From assembly GCA_902525635.1 (NCBI GenBank), contig CABZHV010000001.1:4640-68639 (forward strand): a DNA stretch of 64,000 bases, given 5' to 3'. The notes under the pieces are model-generated. The model did no database searches. It had not been told where the DNA came from and saw only the letters and a program-made list of their open reading frames with translations. Numbering within the stretch: position 1 is the first letter of the stretch; every line of letters starts with the position of its first letter. The DNA comes from an uncultured SAR86 cluster bacterium. Its GTDB lineage: Bacteria > Pseudomonadota > Gammaproteobacteria > Magnimaribacterales > D2472. The position numbers and the translations under genes are program-made. This document shows, piece by piece, positions 29,641 to 46,703 of the stretch.

Positions 29641-31077
29641 ATGGCAGCATACAAAAAAAAGGGATTCTCAATAGGAATATTTATATTTCTGGTTATGCAG
29701 TTTATGTCTCCCCCTTCTGGTTTAAGTGAAGTTGGATGGGATGTTGCTTCTGTAGCAGTTCTAATGGCAATATGGTGGGCAACAGAAACAGTTCCAGTTG
29801 CAATCACTGCACTTCTTCCGCTTGCTCTTTTCCCTCTTCTGGATGTTACTTCCTTTGATAATGCTGCACTTCCATATGCTAATAAGAACATTTATTTGTT
29901 CTTAGGTGGCTTTATGCTTGCACTCGGTATTGAAAGTTCAGGATTACATAAAAGAATTGCTCTTAAAATGATTATTTCAGTTGGCTCAAGTGGAAGAAAG
30001 CTTGTTGGAGGCTTTATGCTGGTAGCAGCATTAATTAGTATGTGGGTAATGAATACCTCTACAACATTAATGTTACTTCCAATTGGATTAGCGGTCTGCA
30101 CTGTCATGTCAGAAACTATTCCTGGTTTATCAGAAAAAGATAAATCAAATTTTGACACAGCTCTGCTTCTTGGAATCGCATACGCTGCAACAATCGGCGG
30201 TATGTCAACATTGATCGGAACAGCTCCAAATATTGTTTTCAGTGCCTTTATGCAAGATACCTATGGTGTTGAAATCTCAATGTTTGATTGGATGATGTTA
30301 GGGGTACCTCTAGCCTCGATCATGCTTTTTGGTGCATGGACATTACTAACAAAATATGTATTTCCAATTACCTTTACTGCTTCAACTGAAGCAAGAGATG
30401 AGCTAAAAAAAATGCTTTTAAATATGGGAGAATTTTCTAAAGACGAAAAGAGAATTTCTATAATCTTTGGCTTGGCAGTTTTTGCATGGGTTTTCAGAAC
30501 ATTGTTGAATAAAATTGATTTTTTGTCTGGACTTACTGATGCAGGGATTGCAATTATTGCAGCAATTTTAATTTTTATGACGCCATCTGCATCTAAAAAA
30601 GGCGATTTATTAAAATGGGAGCGATCAAAAGACCTCCCATGGGGACTCTTAATTTTGTTTGGTGGTGGTTTGTCACTTGCTGCTCAAATAAGCTCAAGCG
30701 GTCTTGGAGTTTGGATTGGAAACAGTCTTTTAGTTTTGAGTTCAGTTCCACCAATATTACTAATCTTGGCAGTCGCAACTTTAATTATTTTCTTAACTGA
30801 AATCACAAGTAATGTAACTACCACGACAACCTTCTTACCTGTTTTTGGAGCTCTTGCAATTGCTATTGGTATACTACCCGTATCATTAACAGTTCCAGTT
30901 TGCCTTGCAGCAAGTTGTGCTTTCATGCTTCCGGTTGCGACTCCACCAAATGCTATTGTTTATGGTTCTAATAAGTTTACTATCGCAACAATGATGAGAG
31001 CTGGCTTTGCACTTAATATCATTGGCATACTAGTTGTTACAGTATTTGCTTATTATTTTGCTCCTTTAATTTTTTAA
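29641..31077 (+). CDS. DASS/SLC13 sodium:di/tricarboxylate (or sulfate) symporter
   Basis: SMWVMNTSTT, GTAPN, TEITSNVTT, AFMLPVATPPNAIV. Confidence 0.92.
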   Translation: MAAYKKKGFSIGIFIFLVMQFMSPPSGLSEVGWDVASVAVLMAIWWATETVPVAITALLPLALFPLLDVTSFDNAALPYANKNIYLFLGGFMLALGIESSGLHKRIALKMIISVGSSGRKLVGGFMLVAALISMWVMNTSTTLMLLPIGLAVCTVMSETIPGLSEKDKSNFDTALLLGIAYAATIGGMSTLIGTAPNIVFSAFMQDTYGVEISMFDWMMLGVPLASIMLFGAWTLLTKYVFPITFTASTEARDELKKMLLNMGEFSKDEKRISIIFGLAVFAWVFRTLLNKIDFLSGLTDAGIAIIAAILIFMTPSASKKGDLLKWERSKDLPWGLLILFGGGLSLAAQISSSGLGVWIGNSLLVLSSVPPILLILAVATLIIFLTEITSNVTTTTTFLPVFGALAIAIGILPVSLTVPVCLAASCAFMLPVATPPNAIVYGSNKFTIATMMRAGFALNIIGILVVTVFAYYFAPLIF

Positions 31078-31080
31078 GTT

Positions 31081-32793: not shown

Positions 32794-34231
32794 TTTTCCT
32801 GTAATTCAATGGCGGCTTTCTATCACCAAGCAAAGGTTTATATATAAAATCTTTACCAATTCTCTCTACATGCTCAGTCTTCGCTTCTTCAATTATTGAT
32901 GGATTCGAGATAATTTCAATTGCGCTTTTTGCTAAAACTATTGCAGCAAGTTCAGCTCCTTTTAAACCAATTGAAGTTCCTCCAGATGCAACTGCTTGCC
33001 AAGAGTGTGCTGACGTACCTGGAACCCATGTAGCTGTTCTCAATCCTGCTGTTGGGACATTCCAACTTACGTCACCCACATCAGTAGAGCCATAACTATG
33101 AGATGTTTTGAAAGGTCTAATGTTTTCTTGTGTGCCTAGCTTATTATCAGGTTGAAAAAATGTTTCATAAATTGTTTTTGCATAATCATTTTCTTTTTGA
33201 TTATATTTTATTCCTCCAGCCATGCTTAAATTTTTGTGAACAACTTTTTGAATAGCATCATTTTGTAATAATGAGAAATTACCGTGCATGACTTCATAGG
33301 ACATCTTTGTATCTGTTCCTATAGCAGCACCTTCAGCAGTATTAGTCACTCTTGAAAATAATTCTTCAACTACTGACATTTTTGGATGTCTAACATAATA
33401 GTAAACTTCAGCAATATCTGGAACAACATTTGGTGCTAAACCACCTTTTGTTATAACGTAATGTATTCTTGATTCTTGAGGAATGTGTTCTCGCATTAAA
33501 TTAACCATATGATTCATTGCCTCAACACCGTCTAATGCTGATCTTCCTTGCTCTGGAGATCCAGCAGCATGTGAAGCAATTCCTTTAAAAGTAAATTTGG
33601 CTGATTTGTTTGCATTTGATGTTCTTGAATTTGCGCTATTTACATCATCAGGATGCCAGTGAAGAACAATATCAACGTCATCAAATAAACCTTCTCTTAC
33701 CATATATACTTTTCCAGAACCTCCTTCCTCAGCAGGTGTTCCGTAAAACCTTATAGTTCCTTTAAAATTATTTTTGATCAACCATTCTTTTATTGCTACT
33801 GCCGCCCATGCAGACGCAGCTCCAAATAGATGATGTCCACAGGCATGACCAGCACCAGTAGCATTATCAGTAACTTCTTTAAATGGAGAATTAGTTTGTG
33901 CTAATCCAGGAAGGGCATCAAATTCTCCCAAAATGCCAATGACCGGCCCTCCGTTATTAAATTCAGCAACAAATGCAGTTGGAATACCTGCAACACCTTT
34001 TTTAATTTGAAAACCTTGATCTCGTAAGGATTTAGCAAGTGCATCTGAACTTTTGAGCTCTAAGTATCCAAGTTCAGCATAATTCCATATATCAATAGCA
34101 ATATTTTCAAATTTATTTTTATGATAATTAATACTTTTTATGACTGAATCACTTTCAAGAAAATCACTTATGAATATGGAGAGAATAAAACCCACACAAT
34201 GGTTTAACTTATATGTTTTAGATTTCTGCAT
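32786..34231 (-). CDS. M20 family amidohydrolase, AbgB-like
   Basis: EFDALPG, GHACGH, GTPAEEGG, WHP, GSTDVGDVSW. Confidence 0.88.
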   Translation of the reverse strand: MQKSKTYKLNHCVGFILSIFISDFLESDSVIKSINYHKNKFENIAIDIWNYAELGYLELKSSDALAKSLRDQGFQIKKGVAGIPTAFVAEFNNGGPVIGILGEFDALPGLAQTNSPFKEVTDNATGAGHACGHHLFGAASAWAAVAIKEWLIKNNFKGTIRFYGTPAEEGGSGKVYMVREGLFDDVDIVLHWHPDDVNSANSRTSNANKSAKFTFKGIASHAAGSPEQGRSALDGVEAMNHMVNLMREHIPQESRIHYVITKGGLAPNVVPDIAEVYYYVRHPKMSVVEELFSRVTNTAEGAAIGTDTKMSYEVMHGNFSLLQNDAIQKVVHKNLSMAGGIKYNQKENDYAKTIYETFFQPDNKLGTQENIRPFKTSHSYGSTDVGDVSWNVPTAGLRTATWVPGTSAHSWQAVASGGTSIGLKGAELAAIVLAKSAIEIISNPSIIEEAKTEHVERIGKDFIYKPLLGDRKPPLNYRKIN

Positions 34232-34841
34232 TACCCCAATAATTATAACCTACAATCTTTGGAGTGCTTGGCAGATACATTTGTTCAAGATCATTTATTT
34301 TAAAACCACTTTCTAACAAAATATTTGGAATATTTCTATTTATGTTGCATCCACCAAATAATTTTCCCCAAAGTGGATTTATTCTATTTTGCCACTTAAT
34401 AACTTTGTCGTCTGGAGCAACTCCATGTTCACAAAAAAGAATCTTACCATCTGATTTCATTACTCTTTTAATCTCCCTAAGAGCATCAAAAGGATTTGGT
34501 ATTGTGCAAAGAGTATATGTTAATAGAACAGTATCAATGGAATTAGATGCGAGCTTAATCTCTTCAGCACCATTCAATAAAAAATTGATATCTATCTCAT
34601 TTTTGATAGCAGCTTGTTTTGCCATCTCACAAAGTTCTGGAGAGGGATCTAAGCCATATATTTTTTCTACTTTAGACTTTTTGTAAAAGGGGATATTTAG
34701 TCCAGAACCAATTCCTATCTCCAAAATAGTTCCTTTTGCATGTGGAACGATTTTTTTTCTTTGATAATTGACAGGTTTTGTTGAACAACATTTATCTAAA
34801 AGCTTTGGGAGTATATATTTCTCATAAGCTTCTTTAATCAT
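34218..34841 (-). CDS. Class I SAM-dependent methyltransferase
   Basis: [10 protein letters not shown] motif I, YTLCTI, FCEHG, GGC; second Met taken as start. Confidence 0.85.
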
Positions 34842-35625
34842 GCTCAATTTCATTTAGAGGCATTGCAGCAATATTGAAACCAGCGTCAACATAGGTAATT
34901 TCGCCTGTTATTCCACTCGCATAATCAGAGCATAAAAAGGCAGCAGCATTCCCAACTTCTTCAGCAGTTACTGTTCTTCCTAAAGGAGCTCTTTTTGAAT
35001 GTTGACTCAGCATTTTTCTAAAATTTTTAACGCCCGAGGCTGCAAGTGTTTTTATCGGACCAGCTGAGATAGCATTGACTCTTATATTATTTTTTCCTAA
35101 GGACGCAGCTAGAAATCTTGTATTTGCCTCAAGAGAAGCTTTTGCAAGACCCATAACATTATAATTAGGCATAGTTTGAATGGATCCAAGATATGAAAGG
35201 GTTAGCAGTGCAGAGTTTTCATTAAGCATGGATTTTGATTCTTTAGCCATAGCAGTAAAGCTATACGAGCTTATGTCATGCGCTACTTTAAAACCTTCTC
35301 TAGTAGTAACATCAACAAAATCACCCTCGAGTTGATCAGAGGGGGCATAACCAATTGAATGAACAAAACCATCAAATGTACTCCAACATTGCTTAAGTTC
35401 TTTAAAAGACGATTTTATTGAGTCATCATCGCTTACATCACATTCAATTAATATTTTTGAACCACATGCCTCTGCAATTGGCTTAATATTTTTTAATAAT
35501 CTCTCATTTTGATAAGAAAAAGCCAATTCAGCTCCTTCTTTATGCATGGCATACGCTATTCCAGCTGCAATAGAGTATTTATTGGCAATCCCAGCTATCA
35601 AAAACTTCTTATTTTCTAGTAGCAT
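34834..35625 (-). CDS. fabI: Enoyl-ACP reductase FabI
   Basis: [33 protein letters not shown]. Confidence 0.97.
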
Positions 35626-35863
35626 TTAGTTATAGTTATATTTTTTATAACATTATTGTAAAAGAAAAAAGACACAAAGACTCATATTTCAGCTTATTAC
35701 TAAAAAAAACAAAAATTATTTAAATATATTAAGAACTTATGATTAATTATAAATTAATGTAAAAAATTGTAGCAATATTGTTAAAAACCTGAAACAATAC
35801 GATTATTACGTGTTTTAGCGGGGTGCTATGCGCAAAAATTTATATAACTTACAGGGGAATTGT

Positions 35864-38725
35864 ATGTTTAATTTTAAAAATTATTTGTTTGCAGTACTTG
35901 TGCTCACTTTTGGTATTTTTAATATCAATGTTGTTGCTCAAGATTCATCTGCAGATGAAGATGTCGAAGAGGTTGTAATAACCGGTACAAGACTTTCAGA
36001 TCCCAATTTATCTAGTGTCAGTGGTGTTGTAGCTGTTGATGCAGGTGATATTGCTGAAAGAGGTGTGGTTGCAGTTGAGGAGTTACTTGCTGATTTACCA
36101 CAGATATCACTTGGACAAAATATTACAGACTCAAATGGTGCTAATGGTTCTTCAACTATTAGTTTAAGAGGTATAGGTTCAAACAGAACTCTAACCCTAA
36201 TCAATGGAAAGAGAATGGCTCCAGGTACTATCAATGGTCAATCTGCAGCTAACATCAATAACATTCCAGTTTCATTAGTTAGTGAAGTTCAAGTTGTTAC
36301 TGGTGGTGCTTCATCAGTATATGGTTCTGACGCTATTGGTGGTGTTGTTAACTTTATCCTTGATGATGGTTTCCAAGGCTTTAAAGCTAGTTATACACAT
36401 AGTTACTATAACCATAAAAATGAGGACTCTGATATGAGAGCCCTTGTTGAAGCTGCTGGATATCCTCAAGCACCTGATACTGTCAATGTTGGAGACAACA
36501 AAGTTTGGGCTATTATGTTTGGTGCAACTCTTGGTGATAACGGTAACGTTACAGCATATCTTCAAAACAGAGAAAGAGATGCAATTCTTCAAAGTAAGTA
36601 TGACGTATCTGCTTGTGCTCTTTGGGATGGTGGGCCTCAAGCTGCAAATCCTTATGGTTGTGGTGGTTCAGGTACTGTTCCATGGGGTAGATTTGCTAGC
36701 TTTGGTGGCGGGCCAATCACTGATTGGAACTACTCTGTAGCTCCAGGTACTAATGAGTTCGAAGATTATCCAGGACCATTTAACTATGGACCATTTAATT
36801 ATTTCCAAAGACCAACAGAAACACTTTCTGGTGGTTTCTTTGCTGATTACGAAATTGCTGACAACATGAGCTTTTATGCAAGTGCTCAATTTATGGATGA
36901 TAGAACTGTTTCACAGATTGCTCCTTCTGGTGCTTTCTTTGTAACAAGCTCCATTCCTTGTGCTAACCCTTTAATGTCAGCACAACAGTTTAAGTTAATT
37001 TGTACAGACCAAGGTCTTACAGCTGCTGATTCAACACCATCTTACATAGGTAGAAGAAACCTTGAAGGTGGGGGTAGACAACAAGACATCAGACATAACT
37101 CTTACAGATATGTAATGGGTGTTGAAGGTGAGCTATCAAGTGGTTGGACATACGATGTTAGTTATTCTAACTCTGAAACAGCTGTTGCAAGTACATACAT
37201 GAACGATCTATCTATTACTAGAATCAAGAGAGCTCTTGATGTTGTTGCTGATGCAGACGGAAACCCAGTTTGTCAGTCAGTGGTAGATGGTTCAGATCCA
37301 CTTTGTCTTCCATGGAACGTTTTTGTTAACAACGGTAACCAAATTGTTGATAACGAGGCTGATGGTGTGACACAAGGTGTTCTTGATTATCTTATAGTTG
37401 ATCTATACGCAAGAGGAGAAGTTTACGAAGAAATTTGGCAAGCTGTTTTATCTGGTGAGATCGATGCTTTAAACGGTGCTAACGTTGTAGTTGGTGTTGA
37501 AAAAAGAACAACAGGAATGGATAACAGACCTGATAACGGCTTCTTAACAGGCGATGGTGCTGGTCAAGGTGGACCAACAAAAGCACTTGGTGGTGAGTAT
37601 TCCGTTGATGAAGTATTTTTTGAAATGGGTATTCCAGTAAGTGATCAACTTTCAGTTGATTTAGGAGCTAGAATTTCAGACTACTCAACAGGACAAGATA
37701 CTGATACTTGGAAAGTTGGGGCAAAATATGTTGTTAACGATAAAGTTACTGTTAGAGGAACAACACAGTATGCTGTAAGACACGGAAACGTGTTTGAGTT
37801 ATACGGTGACCAGTTCTTAGGTTTATGGTCAGGTAGCGATCCTTGTGCAGGATCTTCACCTTCAGCTTCGGCTGCTGAGTGTGCTCTTACAGGAGTAACT
37901 TCTGCTCAATATGGATCAGTTCCTGATTCACCAGCAGGACAATATAATGCTATCTATGGTGGTAACCCTAACGTTAATCCTGAAGAGTCTGATACTATCT
38001 CATTTGGTGTTGTTATGGAGTTAACAGACAATCTGACTGTTTCAGTAGATTATTCAGATATCACTATTGAAGGCGCTATTGGAAGTGTGTCTCCTGCATT
38101 TAGCATGGACAACTGTATTTCTACAGGATCACCATTACTTTGTGCAAATATTAACAGAAATTCTGTTAACGGAAACATATGGATTGGTTCTGGTGCAGAT
38201 GCTCCAAACGTAGTTTCTACTACATTGAACCTTGGTGAACTATCTACAAGTGGTTACGACATTGTTGCAGACTACTCAATGGATACAGCAATGGGTCCAT
38301 TAAGCATTAAATCTAATATTGCTATCACAGATACTTTCGATATTACTGAAGTTGTAGGTTTTGGAACTGCAGAATGTGCCGGTTATTGGGATGGTGGTGG
38401 AACCTGTGGTGGTCCAACATTTGAACTTCAAACTGTAACATCTGCTACATTATCTTTAGATCAAGGTGACTTAGTGGTAACACATAGATATCTAGATGAA
38501 ATCACTGACTTAGGTCCGTTTGATTCACCTATTGATGCGCAAAACTATTTTGATGCTGCTTTTAGCACATCATTTGGTGATGTTACTGTTTATGTTGGTG
38601 TGAATAACGTTTTTGATGCTGAAGCTCCTGTATTGGATGATTTAGCACCAAATGGTAATACATTCCCATCAATATATGATGCATTTGGTAGATATATATT
38701 TACTAATCTTACTTATCAGTTTTAA
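35864..38725 (+). CDS. TonB-dependent receptor
   Basis: AGGGGA RBS before ATG 35864, signal peptide, EEVVITG TonB box, GGASSVYGSDAIGGVVNF, C-terminal YQF. Confidence 0.95.
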   Translation: MFNFKNYLFAVLVLTFGIFNINVVAQDSSADEDVEEVVITGTRLSDPNLSSVSGVVAVDAGDIAERGVVAVEELLADLPQISLGQNITDSNGANGSSTISLRGIGSNRTLTLINGKRMAPGTINGQSAANINNIPVSLVSEVQVVTGGASSVYGSDAIGGVVNFILDDGFQGFKASYTHSYYNHKNEDSDMRALVEAAGYPQAPDTVNVGDNKVWAIMFGATLGDNGNVTAYLQNRERDAILQSKYDVSACALWDGGPQAANPYGCGGSGTVPWGRFASFGGGPITDWNYSVAPGTNEFEDYPGPFNYGPFNYFQRPTETLSGGFFADYEIADNMSFYASAQFMDDRTVSQIAPSGAFFVTSSIPCANPLMSAQQFKLICTDQGLTAADSTPSYIGRRNLEGGGRQQDIRHNSYRYVMGVEGELSSGWTYDVSYSNSETAVASTYMNDLSITRIKRALDVVADADGNPVCQSVVDGSDPLCLPWNVFVNNGNQIVDNEADGVTQGVLDYLIVDLYARGEVYEEIWQAVLSGEIDALNGANVVVGVEKRTTGMDNRPDNGFLTGDGAGQGGPTKALGGEYSVDEVFFEMGIPVSDQLSVDLGARISDYSTGQDTDTWKVGAKYVVNDKVTVRGTTQYAVRHGNVFELYGDQFLGLWSGSDPCAGSSPSASAAECALTGVTSAQYGSVPDSPAGQYNAIYGGNPNVNPEESDTISFGVVMELTDNLTVSVDYSDITIEGAIGSVSPAFSMDNCISTGSPLLCANINRNSVNGNIWIGSGADAPNVVSTTLNLGELSTSGYDIVADYSMDTAMGPLSIKSNIAITDTFDITEVVGFGTAECAGYWDGGGTCGGPTFELQTVTSATLSLDQGDLVVTHRYLDEITDLGPFDSPIDAQNYFDAAFSTSFGDVTVYVGVNNVFDAEAPVLDDLAPNGNTFPSIYDAFGRYIFTNLTYQF

Positions 38726-38741
38726 TAACTATTTGTAAATT

Positions 38742-38770
38742 AAAAAGAGGGCTTTTGGCCCTCTTTTTTT
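38742..38770 (+). terminator. Rho-independent terminator
   Basis: AAAAAGAGGGC-TTTTG-GCCCTCTTTTTTT. Confidence 0.9.
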
Positions 38771-38934
38771 ATATAAAATAAACTTTGATACAATAATAAA
38801 TATGAATTTCTTAAAAAAAATTAAGATTAAAGCTCTGCATTTTCTATTTGCGAATTTTACAAAACTATTTATTTTTTTTATGAATTTATATGTAAAATCA
38901 CAGGTAAAATAACCCTAAATTAGCCCAGAAATTT

Positions 38935-40497
38935 ATGTATCGATTTCTTTATTTATTATTACTCTCTTTCTCATTTGACGTACTAGTTCATCCTGTTTCA
39001 TCTATTAAGAAATTCTCTGATGAAAATGCACATCTTCCATCACCTTTACCTGATAGAGTGATATTAACTTGGAATGATGACCCTTCAACTACTCAAGCTG
39101 TTAATTGGAGAACAGATATTTCTGTGAGATCTGGGCTTGCACAAATAGCAATAGCGAATGCAAATGGAAGAGCACTTATGCCTGAGGAATATAAAGCAGA
39201 GACAACTTATTTCAAAAGTGACATTAATGAGGCTCATTACCATAGTATTACATTTAAAAATCTTCAACCTAGTACCTTATATGCATATCGTGTTGGTGAT
39301 GGAGTAAACTGGACAGAATATTACCACTTTAAAACAGCAAGCGACAAAGAAGAACCTTTTAGCTTTATATACTTTGGTGATGCTCAAAATGAAGTTAGAA
39401 CTCATTGGTCAAGAGTTTTTAGGGAAGCATTTCGTGATGCTCCTAGAGCAGCATTTACACTTCATGCAGGTGATTTAATTGATGAACATAATAAAGACTC
39501 ACAATGGGGAGAATGGCATCAAGGACCTGACTGGGTAAACGGAACAATACCGGTGATTGCTACCCCAGGAAATCATGAGTACCAAATAGACTCTGAGACC
39601 AAAAGAATATGGACAAACAAAGAAGGTATAAGTGTAAATATTGAAATCGAATCTTTTAATGATGATAATCCCAAGATTTTTATTATTGATATCAAAGATT
39701 CCAATGGAATAACAGGAACAATACAGACAAATGATTCTGGAGAAATTATTAGTACCGATAAAGGCATTGAGTTAATTACAGGGTATAAAGAAGAAGAGTT
39801 AGTAAATAATTATATTTTAGGTGGCAAAGCACCATTATATGACCGTCTACAAAATTCTAGTAGTATCCAAAAGGTTAGCAATCACTGGCGGCCACAATTC
39901 TCATTTCCAATTCAAGAAGTTCCAGACGAAAGGCTTAAGGAAACACTTTATTATTTAGATTATCAAGGCGTAAGATTTATTTCACTTGATTCAAATATTG
40001 AAATGGAAATTCAAGTAGATTGGCTCAGAAAAGTTCTGGAGGAAAATGAAAATCGTTGGACGATTGTTACCTTTCATCATCCCCTTTATTCACCTGCGTC
40101 AGATCGTGATAACTTTGAAATGCGTCAATTGTGGAAACCTATACTTGATGAATTTAAAGTTGATTTGGTTTTAAGTGGACATGATCATAGTTATTCCCGA
40201 ACTGGATTAATAGATACTGAAAATATTAAAAATATTCCAACAGGCTATCAGCAAGCTTATGATCCAAAAATTGGAACAGTGTATGTTGTCTCAGTCAGTG
40301 GACCAAAAATGTATGAGATTACTAAAGGCCCATATGCAAAAAAACTAGGTGAGAATACTCAGCTCTATCAAATTATAGATGTTAATAACGATATTCTTAA
40401 GTTCCGAGCTTTTACAGCAACTGGTGTCTTATATGATAAATTTATTCTTCAAAAACGCAAAGGTAAGCCGAATATATTAATTGAAACTAATTTATAA
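38935..40497 (+). CDS. Purple-acid-phosphatase-like metallophosphoesterase with N-terminal FN3-type domain
   Basis: Signal peptide; Y.YRVG FN3-like motif; FGDAQ, AGDL, GNHE, FHHP, GHDH motifs. Confidence 0.88.
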   Translation: MYRFLYLLLLSFSFDVLVHPVSSIKKFSDENAHLPSPLPDRVILTWNDDPSTTQAVNWRTDISVRSGLAQIAIANANGRALMPEEYKAETTYFKSDINEAHYHSITFKNLQPSTLYAYRVGDGVNWTEYYHFKTASDKEEPFSFIYFGDAQNEVRTHWSRVFREAFRDAPRAAFTLHAGDLIDEHNKDSQWGEWHQGPDWVNGTIPVIATPGNHEYQIDSETKRIWTNKEGISVNIEIESFNDDNPKIFIIDIKDSNGITGTIQTNDSGEIISTDKGIELITGYKEEELVNNYILGGKAPLYDRLQNSSSIQKVSNHWRPQFSFPIQEVPDERLKETLYYLDYQGVRFISLDSNIEMEIQVDWLRKVLEENENRWTIVTFHHPLYSPASDRDNFEMRQLWKPILDEFKVDLVLSGHDHSYSRTGLIDTENIKNIPTGYQQAYDPKIGTVYVVSVSGPKMYEITKGPYAKKLGENTQLYQIIDVNNDILKFRAFTATGVLYDKFILQKRKGKPNILIETNL

Positions 40498-40594
40498 AAA
40501 GTAAACTAATTAGTAGCACTCGAAATTTTACGTAAATATAAGCATAATACAGAAATATAAAATACAGTTTTACTAAGGACTTTTTTGACTAAAT

Positions 40595-40636
40595 GAGGCT
40601 ATTACTTAGCCAGGAGAGTACTTGATTGGCATTCAA
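40595..40636 (+). pseudogene. Decayed 5' half of tRNA-Ala(GGC) (old attachment scar)
   Basis: GAGGCTATTACTTAGCCAGGAGAGTACTTGATTGGCATTCAA matches the first 42 nt of the reconstructed tRNA-Ala at 33/42 positions without gaps. Confidence 0.85.
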
Positions 40637-40685
40637 CTATAAATTTTATTTTCATACTTGTTTATCTATGTTAGCTTAATAATAT

Positions 40686-41696
40686 ATGACAAGATTTCTT
40701 TTATCACTAGCTGAATCAGGATTTATTCCTGATGTCTTAATAAAAATTGCTGCAAGGTATATCTCTAATAAGCGCCTGAATGAGCAGAGCGTTGATGATA
40801 ATAAGGATAAAATTATCACTGTTCTTTCAAGAGGTGCTGTTGCTGAAAAAACATATGATGCTAATGAACAACACTACGAAGTCCCACCTGAATTTTTTAA
40901 GTATGTTTTAGGAACAAACCTTAAATATTCTTGTTCACTATTTAATGATGTAGATTCTCTCAATGATGCAGAGGAATCAATGCTCAAGCTTTATATGGAT
41001 AGAGCTGATATTAAGGACGGTCATGAAGTTCTTGACCTAGGTTGTGGATGGGGTAGTTTTTCTTTATATGTAGCTGAAAGATACCCAAATATAAATATTA
41101 CGTCAGTAAGTAATTCGAGCGATCAAATTGCTTACATTAAAAATGAAGCACATAAAAAAGATCTGTTAAATATCAAGGCTTTTAGAATGGATGTTAATAA
41201 TCTTGAATTAAATAAACAATTTGATCGCATTGTTTCAATTGAAATGTTTGAACATCTAAGAAACTATAAGTTAATTTTAAATTCTCTTAATCATGCACTT
41301 AAACCTGATGGAAAATTATTCATTCATATTTTTTGTCATAAAAAACTAACATATCTTTATGAAATGAAAAATAATCTTGACTGGATGACAAAATATTTTT
41401 TTCAAGGCGGAATTATGCCTAGTAAAGATATCTTTCAGTACTTTGAGGGTGAGTTAGAAATAATCAATCAATGGGATATAAATGGAAATCATTATTCAAA
41501 AACTTGTAAAGCTTGGTTAAACAATCATTATAAAAATAAGAAAAAAATATTAGACATTTTTGAGAAACACTATGATGAACCTAAAATTTGGTTTAATAGA
41601 TGGAGAATTTTTTTTTTATCGTGTGAGGCTTTTTTTGCATTAAATAATGGTAAAGAATATTTTGTTGGACACTATCTATTTAAAAAATCTAATTAA
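40686..41696 (+). CDS. Cfa/CMAS-family SAM-dependent methyltransferase
   Basis: ANEQHYEVP, KYSCS, LDLGCGWGS, SIEMFEH, FIHIFCH. Confidence 0.88.
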   Translation: MTRFLLSLAESGFIPDVLIKIAARYISNKRLNEQSVDDNKDKIITVLSRGAVAEKTYDANEQHYEVPPEFFKYVLGTNLKYSCSLFNDVDSLNDAEESMLKLYMDRADIKDGHEVLDLGCGWGSFSLYVAERYPNINITSVSNSSDQIAYIKNEAHKKDLLNIKAFRMDVNNLELNKQFDRIVSIEMFEHLRNYKLILNSLNHALKPDGKLFIHIFCHKKLTYLYEMKNNLDWMTKYFFQGGIMPSKDIFQYFEGELEIINQWDINGNHYSKTCKAWLNNHYKNKKKILDIFEKHYDEPKIWFNRWRIFFLSCEAFFALNNGKEYFVGHYLFKKSN

Positions 41697-41780
41697 TAAC
41701 CTACAACTAAAAAAGCAAAATATTATAGATTACTGCCCACTGCATCTTCTGAATTCATAATGTACAATGTCGTTTCTGAA

Positions 41781-41821
41781 GGGGCTATAGCTCAGCTGGG
41801 AGAGCGCTTGAATGGCATTCA
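41781..41821 (+). pseudogene. Intact 5' half of tRNA-Ala(GGC), ending just past the anticodon loop (attL)
   Basis: GGGGCTATAGCTCAGCTGGGAGAGCGCTTGAATGGCATTCA, followed immediately by the stop codon of a minus-strand gene. Confidence 0.93.
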
Positions 41822-42073
41822 TTAATCTAGTGCTTCGTATTCAGGAATAACTTTCATTACATAAACAGCATTTTTAAATTCTTTATGACATGCTGATATT
41901 GTTTCTTTAACACAATGCATAGCATGATTATATTCACCTTGAACTACTGTGCTAGTAGGAAAGGTAGCAACCTTAATATCATCATAGGTATTAATCTTTT
42001 CTATGAATCCTTTAATAGGTGGAATAAAGTTCTCTTTGTTAGGGTACATGCTTATATCTATTGTTACTTGCAT
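41822..42073 (-). CDS. YkoF/thiamine-binding-like small protein
   Basis: 83 aa; ISMYP and STVVQG motifs of the thiamine-binding (DUF77)/YkoF ferredoxin-like fold. Confidence 0.65.
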   Translation of the reverse strand: MQVTIDISMYPNKENFIPPIKGFIEKINTYDDIKVATFPTSTVVQGEYNHAMHCVKETISACHKEFKNAVYVMKVIPEYEALD

Positions 42074-42076
42074 AAT

Positions 42077-42643
42077 CTAAATTTTACACTCCTCAATATT
42101 CTTTTCATTATTTACTCTTGGACTATTAACCATTCGATCTACTGGATAAAACTCTACACGCCTAGATAAACTAGAAGCAAATCTATCTTTACCATTTAGA
42201 TAATCTCTAGCTTCATTATGTTTTAATATAATAGGTTGCCTATGATGTATTGGCGCAAGTTTCTCATTAGCTTCCATAGTTAAAATTGCACAACCTGAAT
42301 CGTTATGAATACCTGCAAAATAAAATACATCATTATTAATGTGGAAGTAATAAGGTTGTTTTACTTCTCCATCTCTTTTCCATTCGTACCAACCATCTGC
42401 AAGAATAAGGCAAGGTTTAGATTCTTTGAATGATGGTTTCTGTCTAACTGTTTCTGATCTTGCATTAATTAGATTCATAGGCTCTTTTGCCCAAGAAGGG
42501 GAGTAAGACCATTTCATAAACTTAGGCTTGTCTGTAATCGTTAGAATGTCTTGAGAAGGTGCAACATTGTAATTCTCTTTAATGCTTACACCAGTAAGCT
42601 CTTTGACATCTATAGTCCTTCTTAAAGTAAATCTTCCACACAT
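42077..42643 (-). CDS. SOS response-associated peptidase (SRAP; YedK/HMCES family)
   Basis: N-terminal MCGRF, YNVAPSQ, INARSET, DGWYEW, IHHRQP. Confidence 0.93.
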   Translation of the reverse strand: MCGRFTLRRTIDVKELTGVSIKENYNVAPSQDILTITDKPKFMKWSYSPSWAKEPMNLINARSETVRQKPSFKESKPCLILADGWYEWKRDGEVKQPYYFHINNDVFYFAGIHNDSGCAILTMEANEKLAPIHHRQPIILKHNEARDYLNGKDRFASSLSRRVEFYPVDRMVNSPRVNNEKNIEECKI

Positions 42644-42702
42644 TTAATAATCTTATAACATAATTATTTTTCGTGCCTTGATAGGTTTGGTAAGATGGGA
42701 AT

Positions 42703-43806
42703 ATGAAAAGACTCCTATCTTTGCTAATTGTTTTTATATTTATCCATGGTTGTTCAGAGCCTGTTACTCCTCCTGAAAAAATTGCTAATGATTTCTATCT
42801 CAACCTCTTAACAGGAAACTTTGATTCAGCATTTCTGATGTTTTCTGATGAATCTAAAGAAGCAGTTACAATATTCGATTTTAAAGAGTATTACACTATT
42901 AATATTGGACGCGATTATGAATTCGCCATCAAAGAATTGGAAGAAAATCCAATTGGTGTCCTCTCAATAGGCTATCCAGCTATTGAAATTATAAATATTT
43001 CAATTTCAGGAAAAACTGCCTCGGTAGACTTATCCGCACAAATTAACGACATTCAAGCTATTGCTTCAAAATTAATGACTAAAATATTAGAAAAATATAC
43101 AGCTAATATTTCTACACAAAAAGAGCTTTCTTCATATGCTGAAGAGATGATTGCTGATGAAATAAACAAAACTGATAATGATGCTCTTCCAAAAATAAAT
43201 CTTAAGGTTTTAAGAATTGATTTAGTTCTTGAAAAAGAAGGTTGGAAGATTAGTGAAAATCTTGCCCAAAATATCCTTCTTGAAAAACAGAAACAGGATC
43301 TAATAAAAGAACAACAAGAGGCTGAGCTTAAAGAACTAAACGAAAAAATAGAAAAACAGAAATTAGAAAATGAACGTATTAAACAAGAAAAGAAGCGCAA
43401 AGATGAAGAGGAGCTAAAAAGAAAGCAAGAGTTAGAAAAAGAAAAACTACAATACATGGAGAATAAAGTTTCAATTTTTGATTTTGAAGCAACAAGAATT
43501 GATACTTATTCAGACAAGAACATACCTGCAGTAAGATTTGCTATTAAAAATATTGGAAATAAATCATTAAATATAGTGAAAGTTACTGTAGTCTTTTATG
43601 ATCGGGATGATTTACCAATATATGAAAAATCATACTCTCCTGTATTAGTTTCAAAATATTCAATCTCTGGAGATACTCCTTTAAAACCAAATTATATTAA
43701 GAGGGAAAAAGAAGGTAGATATTACACAATAGAAGAATTAGGACCTGAGTGGTCTGGCAAGGCTACCATCTCTGTCAGTGAGATTGAGTTTACAGATGAT
43801 GATTAA
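42703..43806 (+). CDS. Hypothetical lipoprotein with central coiled coil
   Basis: Lipobox IHGC; K/E/Q-rich helical stretch; beta-rich C-terminal domain. Confidence 0.75.
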   Translation: MKRLLSLLIVFIFIHGCSEPVTPPEKIANDFYLNLLTGNFDSAFLMFSDESKEAVTIFDFKEYYTINIGRDYEFAIKELEENPIGVLSIGYPAIEIINISISGKTASVDLSAQINDIQAIASKLMTKILEKYTANISTQKELSSYAEEMIADEINKTDNDALPKINLKVLRIDLVLEKEGWKISENLAQNILLEKQKQDLIKEQQEAELKELNEKIEKQKLENERIKQEKKRKDEEELKRKQELEKEKLQYMENKVSIFDFEATRIDTYSDKNIPAVRFAIKNIGNKSLNIVKVTVVFYDRDDLPIYEKSYSPVLVSKYSISGDTPLKPNYIKREKEGRYYTIEELGPEWSGKATISVSEIEFTDDD

Positions 43807-43822
43807 ACTTTTAGGACTAAAT

Positions 43823-43898
43823 GGGGCTATAGCTCAGCTGGGAGAGCGTCAGCGTGGCACGTTGAAGGTCGTCGGTTCGATCCCGACTAGCTCCACCA
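43823..43898 (+). tRNA. tRNA-Ala(GGC), variant copy carried inside the insert
   Basis: 76 nt; acceptor GGGGCTA/TAGCTCC with G3:U70; anticodon arm TCAGC-GT GGC AC-GTTGA; T arm GTCGG-TTCGATC-CCGAC; CCA. Confidence 0.93.
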
Positions 43899-43932
43899 AT
43901 TTAAATAATTTTAGAGTTTTCTATATAAATAT

Positions 43933-43950
43933 GTGACCATATGGTGACCA
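43933..43950. repeat. Tandem GTGACCA repeat with 11-bp period; candidate integrase arm-type site
   Basis: GTGACCA-TATG-GTGACCA, about 105 bp from the right core repeat. Confidence 0.45.
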
Positions 43951-44029
43951 AGAGTCAAAACAACTTTATTTGTAAGAAATGATTTATACTTGAAGCGTGG
44001 CTTTGACTAGGTTTGCGCCTTTTAAGTTT

Positions 44030-44098
44030 TATAACTCGTAGGAGAGCATCCTCATGGCATTCAAGAGGTCCGCGGTTCGATCCCGCGTAGCTCCACCA
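44030..44098 (+). pseudogene. Intact 3' half of tRNA-Ala(GGC) preceded by a decayed, non-complementary 5' portion (attR)
   Basis: TATAACTCGTAGGAGAGCATCCTC-ATGGCATTCAAGAGGTCCGCGGTTCGATCCCGCGTAGCTCCACCA; acceptor and anticodon stems cannot pair. Confidence 0.9.
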
Positions 44099-44208: not shown

Positions 44209-44826
44209 CTACTCTCTGATTCCAGACTCTGAAGGAAGCATAGATTCATTCTGAATTGCATTTTCATAAACAGCCACAAAAATCATCAAATAAAAAGGTA
44301 GTGCAAATAGCGATAAAATATTTACTATCGGAATTACAGAGATTATTTGAATGCCTATGGTAAGTAATGCATACACACCGAATACCTTCCAAAAACCCAT
44401 TGAATGTACCTGCTCTCTGGATTGTCCTAATGACTCTGTTGGTAACATATCTTTATCTACTAAAAAAAACCATGCTAAAAGCCATACTGTTGCAAGATAG
44501 ATTCCTGGAATAAATAACAATAAAAGCCCTAAAAATACTCCAAAAAATGAGATGAACATCAGAAGCAAGGTTTTCCACCACATTCCATTTTGAAAACCAT
44601 ACAGCCAGGAGTCCATAATTCCCTCGCTTTCTCCTCTAGCAGCCCTCAACATGAATTTATAAAAACCCCCCAAAAGAGCCGGAATAAATAAAAGTCCGAT
44701 AATCGTAATTGCCGCTACTACACATAATATACATGTAATGATGAACCTAAAAAAAATTAACCAATAATTTTTTTTGGCCATCTCAATTCCAATTTTAAAA
44801 TAATCTTCTATTTTTAAATCTTTCAT
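44209..44826 (-). CDS. Hypothetical integral membrane protein
   Basis: Several TM segments; LFIPGIYLA..W...FLVD.....ESL..S pattern (DUF975-like). Confidence 0.7.
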   Translation of the reverse strand: MKDLKIEDYFKIGIEMAKKNYWLIFFRFIITCILCVVAAITIIGLLFIPALLGGFYKFMLRAARGESEGIMDSWLYGFQNGMWWKTLLLMFISFFGVFLGLLLLFIPGIYLATVWLLAWFFLVDKDMLPTESLGQSREQVHSMGFWKVFGVYALLTIGIQIISVIPIVNILSLFALPFYLMIFVAVYENAIQNESMLPSESGIRE

Positions 44827-44894: not shown

Positions 44895-45173
44895 CTATAC
44901 TTTTTTAATAACTCCAGAAGTTGAATTAACATCTTCTTTTATTCCTCTTATCGACTTGAATAAAGTGCACTTATTTTTCTTTGAATCATATGTGAATGCT
45001 AAGATTCCTGTTCTTTTTTCAGCATAACTTTTACATTTATCAAATGAAGCATATTTACCTGAAGACTTAACAGAAGCTATTTTTCCTTCAATTAGCATTG
45101 CAGTCTTCATTTCATATTCAGCGAAAGTTATTAATGGTAATAAGAAAGTTACTGTGAATAATAATTTTTTCAT
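44895..45173 (-). CDS. Small secreted PAN/apple-domain-like protein
   Basis: Signal peptide; C...AFTYDSKKNKCTLF...STSG resembles the PAN module. Confidence 0.6.
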   Translation of the reverse strand: MKKLLFTVTFLLPLITFAEYEMKTAMLIEGKIASVKSSGKYASFDKCKSYAEKRTGILAFTYDSKKNKCTLFKSIRGIKEDVNSTSGVIKKV

Positions 45174-45254
45174 TGTATTTATCCTCTCTAGTTGTTGCTT
45201 ATATTAGTTTTTACTGCAATTACAGTGCCAAATTTACTAGCGAAGAAACAACTT

Positions 45255-46703
45255 TTAATCTTTTGAATTATGAAATTTTAGATTTGTATCATCGATCGAC
45301 ATAAATCTCACAGCAAATATATCTTTGATGTAATTTTGATAGTTCTTCCAAGGAGATTTGTTGCCCTGTTTAGGCATCATTTTCAAGCCTCTTTTGATGT
45401 AACCTGATGTAAAGTCTATCAATTTATCATTGCCATAAGCTTCAAGATCATCAATAGGAGTACACGATAGAACATTCTTTTTATCCATGAGTTTTATAAG
45501 CCTGCATACATATTCACAGGTCAAATCAGTTCTTAATGTCCAAGAAGCATTTACATAACCAAATGATAGAGCAAAATTAGGAACTCCACTTAGCATCATT
45601 CCTTTATAAGTTAACCTTTCGTTTGGATTTACCTTATTATTATCTATTGATACATTAATATCATTTAATGCATTTAATTCAATACCTGTTGCTGTAACAA
45701 TTAAATCTGCTTCAATTTTTTTTCCTGATTTTAAAATAATTCCGTCAGATTCAAATTTATCAATAATATCTGTTTGAATTGAAAGTTGTCCTGATTTAAT
45801 TGCTTTAAATAGATCGCTATCGGGAACTAGGCATATTCTCTGATCCCATGGCATATAACTTGGCGTAAAATGTTTTTCAACATCATAGTTATTTCCCAGT
45901 TCATTTTTAATTCGCTGAATTAATTGCTCTTTAAGTTTTTTAGGAAATTTTTTTGCAACAAAGTATGTGTAACTTTGATAAAGTATATTTTTCCATCTAA
46001 CTAAGAAATAAGAAATTTTAAGAGGTAAGATTTTTCTTAAGAACAGGTTAATCTTATCTTCACTTGGCCATGAGACTACATAAGTAGGTGATCTTTGCAG
46101 CATAACTACATGCTTAGTTTCTTTTGCTATTTCAGGTGCCAAAGTTACTGCTGTAGCACCACTTCCAATAACAATTACTCTTTTATTTTTATAATCAATT
46201 TCACTATTCCAAAATTGAGGATGAATTACATCACCTCTAAAATTTTCTTGATCTTTAAAAGTTGGCATATGAGGTTTTGAATAACTAAAATAACCTCCAC
46301 ATAAGAATAAAAAGTTACAAGTTATCTCTTTAGATTTACCATTTGTTTTAACAATTAATGACCAATATGACTTTTTTGAATTCCAATTTGCATTCAAAAC
46401 TTTATGGTTGAATAAGATATTTTTTTTTAGGTCGTAGTCTTTAACAGTGTCATCTAAATATTTTAATATTGAAGGACCATCTGCAATTGATTTTTTAGAA
46501 ATCCAAGGTTTAAATCTATAGCCAAGAGTATGCATATCAGAATCAGATCTTATACCAGGATATTTGAAAAGATCCCAAGTGCCTCCAATATTGTTTCTTG
46601 CCTCTAGGATTGAAAAAGTTTTGTTAGAACATTTTTTCTTTAAATGATATCCAGCAGCTATACCTGAAATACCAGCTCCTATTACTATGACATCTTTATG
46701 CAT
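45255..46703 (-). CDS. EthA-like flavin-containing (Baeyer-Villiger-type) monooxygenase
   Basis: GAGISG, GGTWDLFKYPGIRSDSD, F.G.VIHPQFW, GSGATA. Confidence 0.92.
   Translation of the reverse strand: MHKDVIVIGAGISGIAAGYHLKKKCSNKTFSILEARNNIGGTWDLFKYPGIRSDSDMHTLGYRFKPWISKKSIADGPSILKYLDDTVKDYDLKKNILFNHKVLNANWNSKKSYWSLIVKTNGKSKEITCNFLFLCGGYFSYSKPHMPTFKDQENFRGDVIHPQFWNSEIDYKNKRVIVIGSGATAVTLAPEIAKETKHVVMLQRSPTYVVSWPSEDKINLFLRKILPLKISYFLVRWKNILYQSYTYFVAKKFPKKLKEQLIQRIKNELGNNYDVEKHFTPSYMPWDQRICLVPDSDLFKAIKSGQLSIQTDIIDKFESDGIILKSGKKIEADLIVTATGIELNALNDINVSIDNNKVNPNERLTYKGMMLSGVPNFALSFGYVNASWTLRTDLTCEYVCRLIKLMDKKNVLSCTPIDDLEAYGNDKLIDFTSGYIKRGLKMMPKQGNKSPWKNYQNYIKDIFAVRFMSIDDTNLKFHNSKD

What the first reader, a model, noticed from the sequence alone, without database searches (positions are those of the whole stretch)
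41781..44098. tRNA-Ala(GGC) split in its anticodon loop by a 2242-bp integrase-less cassette that does not repair the target but carries a complete substitute tRNA
Seen: a perfect tRNA-Ala 5' half (41781-41821) and a perfect 3' half (44054-44098) share the core ATGGCATTCA. Fused, they give a 76-nt cloverleaf with stems GGGGCTA/TAGCTCC and CTTGA/TCAAG. Between them lie three genes (YkoF-like, SRAP, lipoprotein) and a full tRNA-Ala(GGC) at 43823-43898, with no recombinase. Neither junction forms a foldable tRNA. Known: tyrosine-integrase elements usually restore the disrupted tRNA with a duplicated fragment, and the anticodon loop is one of their standard crossover sites. Inference: this element inactivates the host gene and complements it with its own whole tRNA. 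It would be a small non-autonomous cassette mobilised in trans, or the remnant of a larger element.
Basis: partly seen in the sequence, partly recalled or inferred. Interest (0 to 1): 0.9.

Follow-up and report, generated by a model that had tools for sequence, protein, structure and literature searches.

The report
Broken alanine tRNA with spare copy
A marine bacterium's alanine tRNA gene is cut in two at its anticodon loop by about 2.2 kb of foreign DNA that carries a different, complete copy of the same tRNA, at a site where related genomes repeatedly gain and lose gene islands.

Summary
Window 41781-41821 and 44054-44098 are the two parts of one tRNA-Ala(GGC) gene ("T1"). T1 is intact, with identical sequence, in 40 of 139 genomes of the same family, including the closest relative G014. 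Between the parts lie a YkoF-like gene, an SRAP gene, a lipoprotein gene and a complete second allele ("T2", 15 differences), which is the only intact Ala(GGC) tRNA in the assembly.

- The insert is not a tidy cassette. Its right third (T2, a GTGACC motif, a spacer, the T1 3' part) is the end module of a family of recombinase-less islands at this hotspot.
- YkoF-SRAP occurs elsewhere at 93% identity with the same boundary, and forms without the lipoprotein gene exist in seawater.
- A metagenome contig (L052) repeats the design with other cargo: T1 cut after its loop, a complete T2 inside, the T1 3' part at the far end.
- Truncated T1 5' parts in four sequences end within nt 38-43.
- No tyrosine integrase is associated. 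Large serine recombinase genes abut tRNA-Ala genes in five related sequences.

Most likely this is a decayed composite island made by recombination at the loop site. It is a new variant of a known kind, of moderate interest.

The parts
40686..41696 (+). Left flank: cyclopropane-fatty-acid-synthase-like methyltransferase (MT)
   Evidence: PF02353 at 157 bits. It lies next to the tRNA-Ala(GGC) gene in the relatives mapped, and is 99-100% identical in G014.
41781..41821 (+). T1 5' part (nt 1-41 of tRNA-Ala(GGC) allele T1), ending in the 3' strand of the anticodon stem
   Evidence: Identical to intact T1 in relatives.
41822..42073 (-). YkoF-like / thiamine-binding-family gene (83 aa). Its stop codon abuts the T1 fragment.
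   Evidence: PF01910 at 25.9 bits. Relatives at this hotspot: G046 (82%), G045 (77%), and G044:C39 (93%, a different context).
42077..42643 (-). SRAP (SOS-response-associated peptidase) gene, 188 aa
   Evidence: PF02586 at 151 bits. Present in 2 of 41 genus genomes and 8 of 139 family genomes.
42650..42708 (.). Conserved 59-bp intergenic stretch containing TAAGATG, as in the regions upstream of tRNA-Ala genes
   Evidence: 88-93% matches in G019 (between MT and T1) and G049 (about 0.5 kb upstream of tRNA-Ser(TGA)). Joints in seawater contigs run from 42645/42656 straight to a tRNA-Ala 5' end.
42703..43806 (+). Lipoprotein gene (367 aa, lipobox, central coiled coil), ending 16 nt before T2
   Evidence: No Pfam family. 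Found in 1 of 41 genus genomes. Contigs of runs X1, X2 and X3 run from this gene into the tRNA 5' end.
43823..43898 (+). T2: complete tRNA-Ala(GGC), 15 differences from T1, all in the anticodon arm and T stem. G3:U70 is kept.
   Evidence: The same sequence is the resident gene in L047, G041, G046, G178 and L049-L055.
43933..43951 (+). Island motif GTGACCATATGGTGACCAA, 34 nt after T2. This is the only copy in the G000 assembly.
   Evidence: In relatives it lies about 30 nt after the tRNA and again about 110 nt before the 3' fragment. Within the family its good copies (0-1 mismatch) lie at tRNA-Ala islands in every locus I opened; G052's was not opened.
43997..44011 (+). Spacer box GTGGCTTTGACTAGG
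   Evidence: Present in the right ends of 6 recombinase-less islands and in the right end of the serine-recombinase element of G173.
44041..44053 (+). Degenerate D-arm-like stretch (GGAGAGC + 6 nt) directly before the 3' part
   Evidence: Aligns with T2 nt 19 onward at 75% (D1). GAGAGC stands at the same distance in the right ends of G000, G010, G008, G020, G023, G024 and L052; G001 has GAGATC.
44054..44098 (+). T1 3' part (nt 32-76), the 45-nt identity block that ends every island of this family
44209..44826 (-). 205-aa membrane-protein gene with no match in the relatives compared. Possibly further island cargo.
   Evidence: No Pfam family. 'uniq' in the synteny map.
44895..46703 (-). Conserved right flank: 92-aa gene and flavin monooxygenase gene
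   Evidence: Families F05 and F00 in the synteny map. PF00743.

Best explanation
The locus is a composite, partly decayed island at the tRNA-Ala(GGC) integration hotspot of this marine gammaproteobacterial family.

The resident gene T1 has been broken in the 3' strand of its anticodon stem. Its two parts now flank DNA that derives from a lineage carrying allele T2. That DNA holds two or three accessory genes that lay upstream of T2, the complete T2 gene, and a cargo-less island end module (motif, spacer with box, T1-type 3' block). T2, probably co-transcribed with the lipoprotein gene, now supplies tRNA-Ala(GGC).

I infer that the break was started at the anticodon-loop site used by the large serine recombinases that target tRNA-Ala genes in this family. 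These would have acted in trans, or before being lost, on a non-canonical partner site that shares only CATTCA with the tRNA. The result is a non-restoring junction.

Shown: the anatomy, the empty site, the shared end module, the second example, the clustering of break points, and the presence of serine recombinases at tRNA-Ala genes.

Inferred: which enzyme acted, that T2 is expressed and needed, and the order of events.
For: - Intact T1 occurs in 40 of 139 family genomes; G000 is split. G014 is 98% identical over window 30574-41821 and has intact T1.
- Five relatives (G010, G008, G001, G024, G023) have standard islands: T1, about 30 nt, motif, cargo, motif, about 110-nt spacer, T1 nt 32-76. 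None has a recombinase.
- G000 has T2, 34 nt, one motif, spacer, block, which is the same module without cargo.
- L052 has F02, T1 nt 1-38, 43 nt, a complete T2, motif, a 646-aa lipoprotein gene, motif, spacer, T1 nt 32-76, then hisC. Its T2 is 76/76 identical to G000's and its spacer 98/122.
- Truncated T1 5' parts end at nt 38 (L052, G176), nt 41 (G000) and about nt 43 (G020). Given the first, three more falling in a 6-nt window of 76 has p of about 5e-4 under a uniform model.
- The right-end identity blocks of the six standard or related islands examined (G010, G008, G001, G024, G020, L052) and of G000 start at nt 32. So does that of the serine-recombinase element of G173, which also shares the spacer box.
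- Serine recombinase genes abut or overlap tRNA-Ala genes in G173, G051, L050, G176 and G115. They have Resolvase + Recombinase + Zn_ribbon_recom domains.
- Tyrosine recombinases other than two roughly 300-aa genes per genome are nearly absent from the genus.
- T2 is resident at the same locus in L047, G041 and several metagenome contigs.
Against: - No recombinase of any kind is in the G000 assembly, which is 78% complete.
- The four non-restoring junctions share no recognisable right half-site. A canonical attP is therefore excluded and a pseudo-site has to be invoked.
- The crossover point of these recombinases is unknown. Their att sites could be centred elsewhere in the 45-nt block.
- T1 nt 27-43 is a 16/17 palindrome and could be a break hotspot without any enzyme.
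- In two runs the YkoF flank is preceded, in another context, by sequence ending in CATTCA. This fits plain microhomology joining equally well.
- In G176 the truncation looks like a deletion with a 19-nt filler.
- The GTGACC motif was not found in the stretches I fetched around the recombinase genes of G173, G051, G176 and G055.
- G051 (94% complete) shows no tRNA-Ala(GGC) at all, so a substitute may not be needed.
- No listed contig of four runs bridges 41821|41822, and the left junction had 0 hits in metagenome contigs.
Confidence: 0.4

Rival explanations
1. The 2242 bp form one non-autonomous cassette. It exists as a circle with attP = spacer-ATGGCATTCA-YkoF flank, integrates as a unit into the T1 anticodon loop, never restores T1, and brings T2 as a designed substitute whose altered anticodon arm is not itself a target.
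For: The structure is a clean insertion relative to intact T1 in 40 of 139 family genomes. L052 shows the same logic with other cargo and a 7-nt repeat equal to the anticodon loop. T2 differs from T1 exactly in the anticodon arm and T stem. Both T1 parts are undecayed, so the event is recent.
Against: - The left arm has no family motif within reach; the G000 assembly holds only one motif.
- The left junctions of G000, L052, G020 and G176 differ in position and in partner sequence.
- YkoF-SRAP ends at the same TTAATCTAG boundary in G044 next to an unrelated gene start.
- The lipoprotein gene is skipped in contigs of X3 and X7.
- The junction pattern had 0 hits in metagenome contigs. T1-block, motif and T2 patterns had 0 hits in viral contigs.
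Confidence: 0.2
2. No recombinase took part. After a T2-bearing segment had come to lie downstream, T1 was redundant and lost its 3' part and the DNA behind it. The loss was a spontaneous deletion or a homology-facilitated illegitimate join at the 6-nt repeat CATTCA, favoured by the palindromic anticodon arm.
For: - Contigs of X2 and X3 show the YkoF flank preceded by other sequence ending in CATTCA (loose ends at 41816).
- T1 nt 27-43 is a 16/17 palindrome.
- G176's truncation removed the recombinase C-terminus together with the tRNA 3' part.
- G014 has the his operon right after T1, and G000's assembly has no his gene: 0 hits with 8 query proteins. This fits a larger replacement or deletion.
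- Arrays with several tRNA copies, of which any one may be the intact one, exist in G171, G046 and G176.
Against: Four independent break points within 6 nt are hard to get from unguided deletion. That window adjoins the loop (nt 32-38), where every right-end identity block starts at nt 32. L052 looks like a clean insertion into a G022-like host (F02-T1-hisC) and not like a deletion.
Confidence: 0.3
3. The left junction is an artefact, either an amplification chimera or a mis-join. The real genome has intact T1.
For: No listed contig of four public runs bridges 41821|41822. There were 0 metagenome hits to the junction. The junction has only 6-10 nt of shared sequence.
Against: An assembler cannot join on 6-10 nt. 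Both T1 parts lie in one 183-kb contig in the right order and orientation. Three other sequences from other sources show T1 cut in the same few nucleotides.
Confidence: 0.05

Closest known systems
Genomic islands integrated in tRNA genes by site-specific integrases (as catalogued in Islander, PMC4383910; I saw only the start of its abstract in the listing)
   Same: The target is a tRNA gene. A displaced tRNA 3' fragment marks the far end. An empty site exists in relatives. Islands accrete at one hotspot. Five relatives show exactly the textbook form.
   Different: In G000 and L052 the target is not regenerated from island sequence. A complete second allele lies inside instead. No integrase is present. 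The associated recombinases in relatives are serine, not tyrosine.
Tycheposons and tRNA-anchored islands of Prochlorococcus (bioRxiv 10.1101/2020.12.28.424599; passages read)
   Same: Streamlined marine bacteria. Islands lie next to full-length tRNA genes with partial tRNAs scattered inside. Most islands hold no integrase, and there are remnants of degenerated elements. [quoted passage not shown]
   Different: No tycheposon hallmark genes were seen at this locus. The host is a different phylum. The passages I read describe no split target with a whole replacement tRNA. The word SAR86 does not occur in that text.
Large serine recombinase (serine integrase) elements that insert into and interrupt genes (phage and developmental elements; recalled, not looked up here)
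   Same: Short common core, no need for long identity, and the target can be left interrupted. Genes with Resolvase + Recombinase + Zn-ribbon domains sit at tRNA-Ala genes in relatives.
   Different: G000 has no such gene. In G173 the element restores the tRNA through a 45-nt identity block, which is unusual for this class. The crossover is not mapped.
Islands at the tmRNA gene ssrA of Dehalococcoides (PMC3146451; start of the abstract seen in the listing, which counts 5 occurrences of 'serine recombinase'; the link to that enzyme is otherwise recalled)
   Same: Site-specific islands at a tRNA-like gene, with a serine-type recombinase and repeats of the gene's 3' end.
   Different: Different gene, different phylum, and the target is restored.
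Cis-mobilisable elements (CIMEs): att-flanked remnants of integrative elements without recombination genes (recalled; the review PMC5704250 was seen only in the listing)
   Same: Cargo bounded by attL- and attR-like ends, no recombinase, and related autonomous elements in other genomes that could act in trans.
   Different: Mobilisation has not been shown here. The left end of the G000 insert is not an attL of the family.

Membership tests
Classical tRNA-integrated genomic island (Islander type) | Intact tRNA at one end, rebuilt from host 5' part and island 3' part | tested here: not met
   In G000 the 5' part is followed by the YkoF stop codon. ARAGORN finds no tRNA at either junction. The feature is met in G010, G008, G001, G024 and G023.
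Classical tRNA-integrated genomic island (Islander type) | Displaced tRNA 3' fragment as a direct repeat at the other end | tested here: met
   44054-44098 equals T1 nt 32-76, preceded by the family spacer.
Classical tRNA-integrated genomic island (Islander type) | Integrase gene inside the island | tested here: not met
   No PF00589 or PF00239 match in G000. The ORFs of the insert are YkoF-like, SRAP and a lipoprotein.
Classical tRNA-integrated genomic island (Islander type) | Unoccupied site in related genomes | tested here: met
   Intact T1 in 40 of 139 family genomes. G016 has MT-T1-FMO with no cargo.
Large serine recombinase integrative element | Gene with Resolvase, Recombinase and zinc-ribbon domains within the element | tested here: not met
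   Absent from G000. Present at tRNA-Ala genes in G173 and G051 (intact), L050 (partial, at a contig end), and G176 and G115 (truncated).
Large serine recombinase integrative element | attL/attR with a short common core at a mapped 2-nt crossover | not testable with these tools
   Shared sequence is 7 nt (L052) or 10 nt (G000). All identity blocks start at nt 32. The crossover needs an experiment.
Non-autonomous att-flanked element (CIME-like) | Both ends are att sites of a known autonomous element | tested here: inconclusive
   The right end shares the block start and the box GTGGYTTTGRCTAGG with the G173 recombinase element. The left end of the G000 insert has no family feature. The GTGACC motif was not found in the stretches fetched around the recombinase genes.
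Tycheposon | Tycheposon-clade tyrosine recombinase and hallmark replication genes | tested here: not met
   No tyrosine recombinase at the locus. Cargo genes only.
Transposon with target-site duplication | Terminal inverted repeats and a transposase | tested here: not met
   No terminal inverted repeat apart from the tRNA's own stem (I8). No transposase-like ORF.
Functional tRNA-Ala (for T2) | Cloverleaf, GGC anticodon, G3:U70 pair | tested here: met
   ARAGORN. Rfam 60.5 bits against a cut-off of 29. Positions 3 and 70 are read from the sequence. Expression was not tested: there is no promoter-like site directly upstream and no terminator after the lipoprotein gene.

The most novel reading that the evidence does not exclude
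There is a class of recombinase-less island cassettes in these abundant marine bacteria that enter the anticodon loop of the common tRNA-Ala(GGC) allele without repairing it. They bring a complete allele (T2) with its own promoter, whose changed anticodon arm is no longer a target. Islands would then drive the replacement of one tRNA allele by another. This would explain why several alleles of this tRNA are shared across genera: four alleles in genus g17, and T1 and T2 each in two or three genera. The polymorphism would be the trace of a conflict between a tRNA gene and the recombinases that use it as a landing site.
Probability: 0.2. Interest if true: 0.75.

Novelty: new variant of a known kind. 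Interest (0 to 1): 0.5.

Why it matters
tRNA-anchored islands are the main store of flexible genes in streamlined ocean bacteria, and how they are filled is poorly known outside Prochlorococcus. This locus gives three things.

1. A well-defined hotspot in a different, abundant lineage, with a ladder of states: bare site, standard islands, arrays, and split target.
2. Candidate enzymes, namely large serine recombinases whose reading frames run through the tRNA gene.
3. Two cases in which the target tRNA is not repaired and a whole different allele stands in for it.

If the stand-in is a regular feature, mobile DNA would be rewriting a core translation gene and shaping its polymorphism. If it is not, the locus is still a clear example of how redundancy created by islands lets a tRNA gene decay.

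Tried and rejected
- **Tyrosine integrase in trans.** PF00589 across 41 genus genomes gave 38 genomes with matches. Almost all were two genes of about 295-306 aa per genome, which I take to be XerC/XerD from size and number only. The two extra hits (G006:C3, G046:C16) lie in elements not at tRNA-Ala: one is next to tRNA-Leu(TAG), the other has no tRNA nearby. Rejected as the likely enzyme.
- **XerCD/dif-type capture.** By eye the T1 anticodon arm has no likeness to the dif consensus as I recall it. Not pursued.
- **Transposon.** No terminal inverted repeats.
- **Phage or satellite origin.** Viral-contig scans for the T1 block, the motif and T2 found 0 stretches each. The G051 recombinase found no relative there.
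- **Same junction elsewhere.** The 22-nt string across core and YkoF flank found 0 metagenome contigs.
- **Read support.** Only Logan contigs were available for the four runs laid. No listed piece bridges 41821|41822 or 44053|44054, and the table is cut (845 pieces not shown). This says nothing either way.
- **Donor context of SRAP.** The six other family genomes with SRAP (61-64% identity) show no tRNA-Ala beside it; one has tRNA-Glu.
- **Microhomology at the G176 junction.** The alignment with G051 shows a 19-nt filler and no clear repeat.
- **Promoter scan.** 6 sites against 12.0 expected from shuffles, and none directly before T2. No evidence either way.
- **Other limits.** Supplements of the tycheposon paper could not be seen and may list elements in other marine taxa. 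I ran no protein-database, structure or complex job, because none bears on the question.
Full report
**Observation**

The window holds, at 41781-41821 and 44054-44098, two pieces that share ATGGCATTCA. Joined by coordinates in a script, they give a 76-nt tRNA-Ala(GGC) by ARAGORN. Neither junction alone gives a tRNA. A complete tRNA-Ala(GGC) lies at 43823-43898 (Rfam 60.5 bits). It is the only one with this anticodon among the 30 tRNAs of the assembly, which has 24 contigs, 1.07 Mb and 78% completeness. I call the split gene T1 and the complete one T2. They differ at 15 positions, all in the anticodon arm and the T stem. The three ORFs between them are a Thiamine_BP/YkoF-like protein (25.9 bits, just over the cut-off), an SRAP protein (151 bits) and a lipobox protein without a Pfam family. 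No recombinase is in the insert or in the assembly.

**The empty site is common**

The T1 5' 17-mer and the T1 3' 22-mer each occur in 42 of 139 genomes of the family. By the listed coordinates they stand at the offset of an intact gene in 40 genomes. The exceptions are G000 (split), G176 (5' part only) and G020 (parts on two contigs). G014, the closest relative found (98% over window 30574-41821, 92% further left), has intact T1 followed by the his operon.

The locus is a hotspot. Between a conserved left side (F02 and/or the methyltransferase) and a conserved right side (a 92-aa gene and a flavin monooxygenase), the fifteen loci mapped hold one of the following:
- nothing (G016)
- one small gene (G003, G045)
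- the his operon (G014, G022, G044)
- three other genes (G019, G049)
- bounded islands

**The island family**

G010, G008, G001, G024 and G023 have intact T1, about 30 nt, the motif GTGACCATATGGTGACCAA, cargo of 0.5-5.3 kb without any recombinase gene, in four of the five the motif again (G008 has no recognisable second copy), and a spacer of about 110 nt. The spacer contains the box GTGGYTTTGRCTAGG and a degenerate D-arm-like GAGAGC. T1 nt 32-76 follow.

In G000 the stretch from T2 to the T1 3' part has exactly this make-up, with one motif and no cargo between. It is the only motif in the G000 assembly.

**T2 is a resident allele elsewhere**

The T2-specific 30-mer occurs in 4 of 266 genomes of the order: G000, G041, G046 and G178, the last in another genus. 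It also occurs in one named genome record, L047, titled 'MAG: Gammaproteobacteria bacterium TMED226', and in 8 metagenome contigs. In L047, G041, L054, L049, L051, L055 and G178 it sits at the same locus as T1 does elsewhere, after F02, with no island. In G046 and L053 it is followed by the same 34 nt and motif as in G000.

A survey with a degenerate pattern shows several alleles of this tRNA in the family, and four of them within genus g17.

**A second split T1 with T2 inside**

Contig L052 reads as follows:
- F02
- T1 nt 1-38
- 43 nt resembling the region upstream of resident tRNA-Ala genes
- a complete T2
- the motif
- one 646-aa lipoprotein gene
- the motif again
- a spacer 98/122 identical to that of G000
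- T1 nt 32-76 with a mutated CCA end
- hisC

Relative to a G022-like host (F02-T1-hisC), this is a clean insertion with a 7-nt repeat equal to the anticodon loop.

**The G000 insert is not a tidy unit**

- YkoF-SRAP is 93% identical in G044:C39, where it ends at the same TTAATCTAG boundary but next to an unrelated gene start and near tRNA-Ser(TGA).
- YkoF alone follows T2 and the motif in G046, and follows T1 in inverted orientation in G045.
- In Logan contigs of four public runs, contigs of X1, X2 and X3 run from the lipoprotein gene into the tRNA 5' end.
- X3 and X7 also hold a form that goes from 42645/42656 to the tRNA 5' end and skips the lipoprotein gene.
- X2 and X3 hold YkoF flanks preceded by other sequence that ends in CATTCA.
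- X3 holds one contig with the empty-site joint 41811 to 44054 (all).

The true junction in G000 may therefore lie anywhere within CATTCA. The three genes probably lay upstream of T2 in a donor chromosome.

**Break points cluster**

T1 5' parts end at nt 38 (L052, G176), nt 41 (G000) and about nt 43 (G020, whose copy has one change in the loop). Given the first, three more in a 6-nt window of a 76-nt gene has a probability of about 5e-4 under a uniform model. All right-end identity blocks start at nt 32. T1 nt 27-43 is a 16/17 palindrome.

**Which enzyme**

PF00589 finds only two genes of about 300 aa per genome in the genus, plus two unrelated elements. PF00239 finds 6 of 139 family genomes. 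Five contexts link this enzyme class to tRNA-Ala genes:
- In G173 a 519-aa large serine recombinase gene runs antisense through an intact tRNA-Ala(GGC) of a third allele. About 10.3 kb away the element ends with a box-bearing spacer and an identity block that again starts at nt 32.
- In G051 a 525-aa relative overlaps tRNA-Ala(TGC).
- In L050 the C-terminal part of such a gene abuts resident T2.
- In G176 a broken copy (residues 1-377 alignable) lies 30 nt from the truncated T1.
- In G115 a copy cut at residue 356 is fused to the tRNA 3' end.

Both intact proteins have Resolvase, Recombinase and zinc-ribbon domains. This makes a serine recombinase the likeliest agent at this hotspot. It would act at or near the loop, and the recombinase-less islands would be its decayed or dependent relatives. 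This is inference. The motif was not found in the stretches fetched around the recombinase genes, the crossover is unmapped, and the four non-restoring junctions share no right half-site.

**Verdict**

The split is real and recent: both T1 parts are undecayed in G000, whereas L052's 3' part has lost CCA. The substitute idea is reasonable and has one independent parallel. The 'integrase-less cassette mobilised as a unit by a tyrosine integrase' is not what the evidence favours.

My estimates are as follows.

| Reading | Probability |
|---|---|
| Recombinase-initiated, non-canonical joining of T1's loop site to a chunk of a T2-type locus | 0.4 |
| Enzyme-free microhomology or palindrome deletion after T2 made T1 redundant | 0.3 |
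| A true unit cassette | 0.2 |
| Artefact | 0.05 |

One further caution: G051, 94% complete, shows no tRNA-Ala(GGC) at all. The need for a substitute is therefore not certain.

**Comparison with what is known**

The start of the Islander abstract, seen in the listing, states the rule that island sequence restores the split tRNA. Five relatives obey it; G000 and L052 do not. The tycheposon preprint (passages read) describes the same ecology of tRNA-anchored islands, partial tRNAs, rare integrase-bearing elements and a minority of large serine recombinases in Prochlorococcus. The passages I read report no split target with a whole replacement tRNA. Three searches and one further text search turned up no description of this hotspot or of a replacement tRNA inside a split one. 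That is a limited search and not proof of absence.

Noticed in passing
L076 (G176:C1:66000-78000), reverse strand 2972-3047 and 9172-9247: Two identical complete tRNA-Ala(TGC) genes lie 6.2 kb apart in direct orientation. They flank a segment with a LysR-like gene and two catalase-peroxidase-like ORFs (461 and 290 aa; KatG by recall, from the N-terminal sequence). This is an island bounded by whole tRNA copies rather than by a fragment.
   Followed up: partly
L074 322-1881 (G173) and L072 9636-11213 (G051): The open frames of the large serine recombinases run antisense through the tRNA gene, so their last 20 or so codons are the complement of the tRNA. The C-terminus would change with integration state.
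   Followed up: partly
window 42650-42708; G019:C1:965424-965481; G049:C1:55692-55750: A 59-bp stretch between SRAP and the lipoprotein gene recurs at 88-93% identity upstream of other tRNA genes (T1 in G019, tRNA-Ser(TGA) in G049). It contains TAAGATG, as do the regions just upstream of tRNA-Ala genes. It may be a tRNA promoter now driving the lipoprotein gene and T2.
   Followed up: partly
whole G000 assembly; G014:C16: G000's assembly has no histidine-biosynthesis gene (0 tblastn hits with 8 proteins of the G022 operon). In its closest relative G014 the operon starts right after T1. This is either an assembly gap (78% complete) or a loss linked to the rearrangement.
   Followed up: partly
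family-wide: tRNA-Ala(GGC) has several alleles that differ in the anticodon arm and T stem, and their distribution cuts across genera. T1 is in g1, g16 and g17; T2 in g1 and g17; a third allele in g12, g13, g14 and g17. A contig in run X2 joins the T1 anticodon arm to a T2-type T arm.
   Followed up: partly
L046 (G006:C3:80000-88000) and L045 (G046:C16:14000-19946): There are two related elements with ORFs of about 410-420, 330-340 and 190-205 aa in a row (the last matches PF00589) and, in L046, an 866-aa ORF beyond a 169-aa one. One lies next to tRNA-Leu(TAG). They may be a separate class of integrative element in this genus.
   Followed up: no
L077 (G171) reverse strand 4190-4280; L040 (G046): The NfeD-SPFH gene pair behaves as its own island unit. 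It lies after the T1 block in G008 and G020, between T1 and a decayed tRNA 3' end plus motif in G171, between the methyltransferase and T2 in G046, and on another contig (C10) in G000.
   Followed up: partly
L064 (G044:C8) and L063 (G044:C15): The same motif and cargo (families F14, F15) follow tRNA-Ala(TGC) on one contig of G044 and T1 on another. G044 also has a second intact T1 on C9, so this genome bin may mix two strains.
   Followed up: no
G000 assembly: No PF00589 match at all, not even the two roughly 300-aa recombinase genes that 38 of 41 genus genomes show. This is probably an assembly gap.
   Followed up: no
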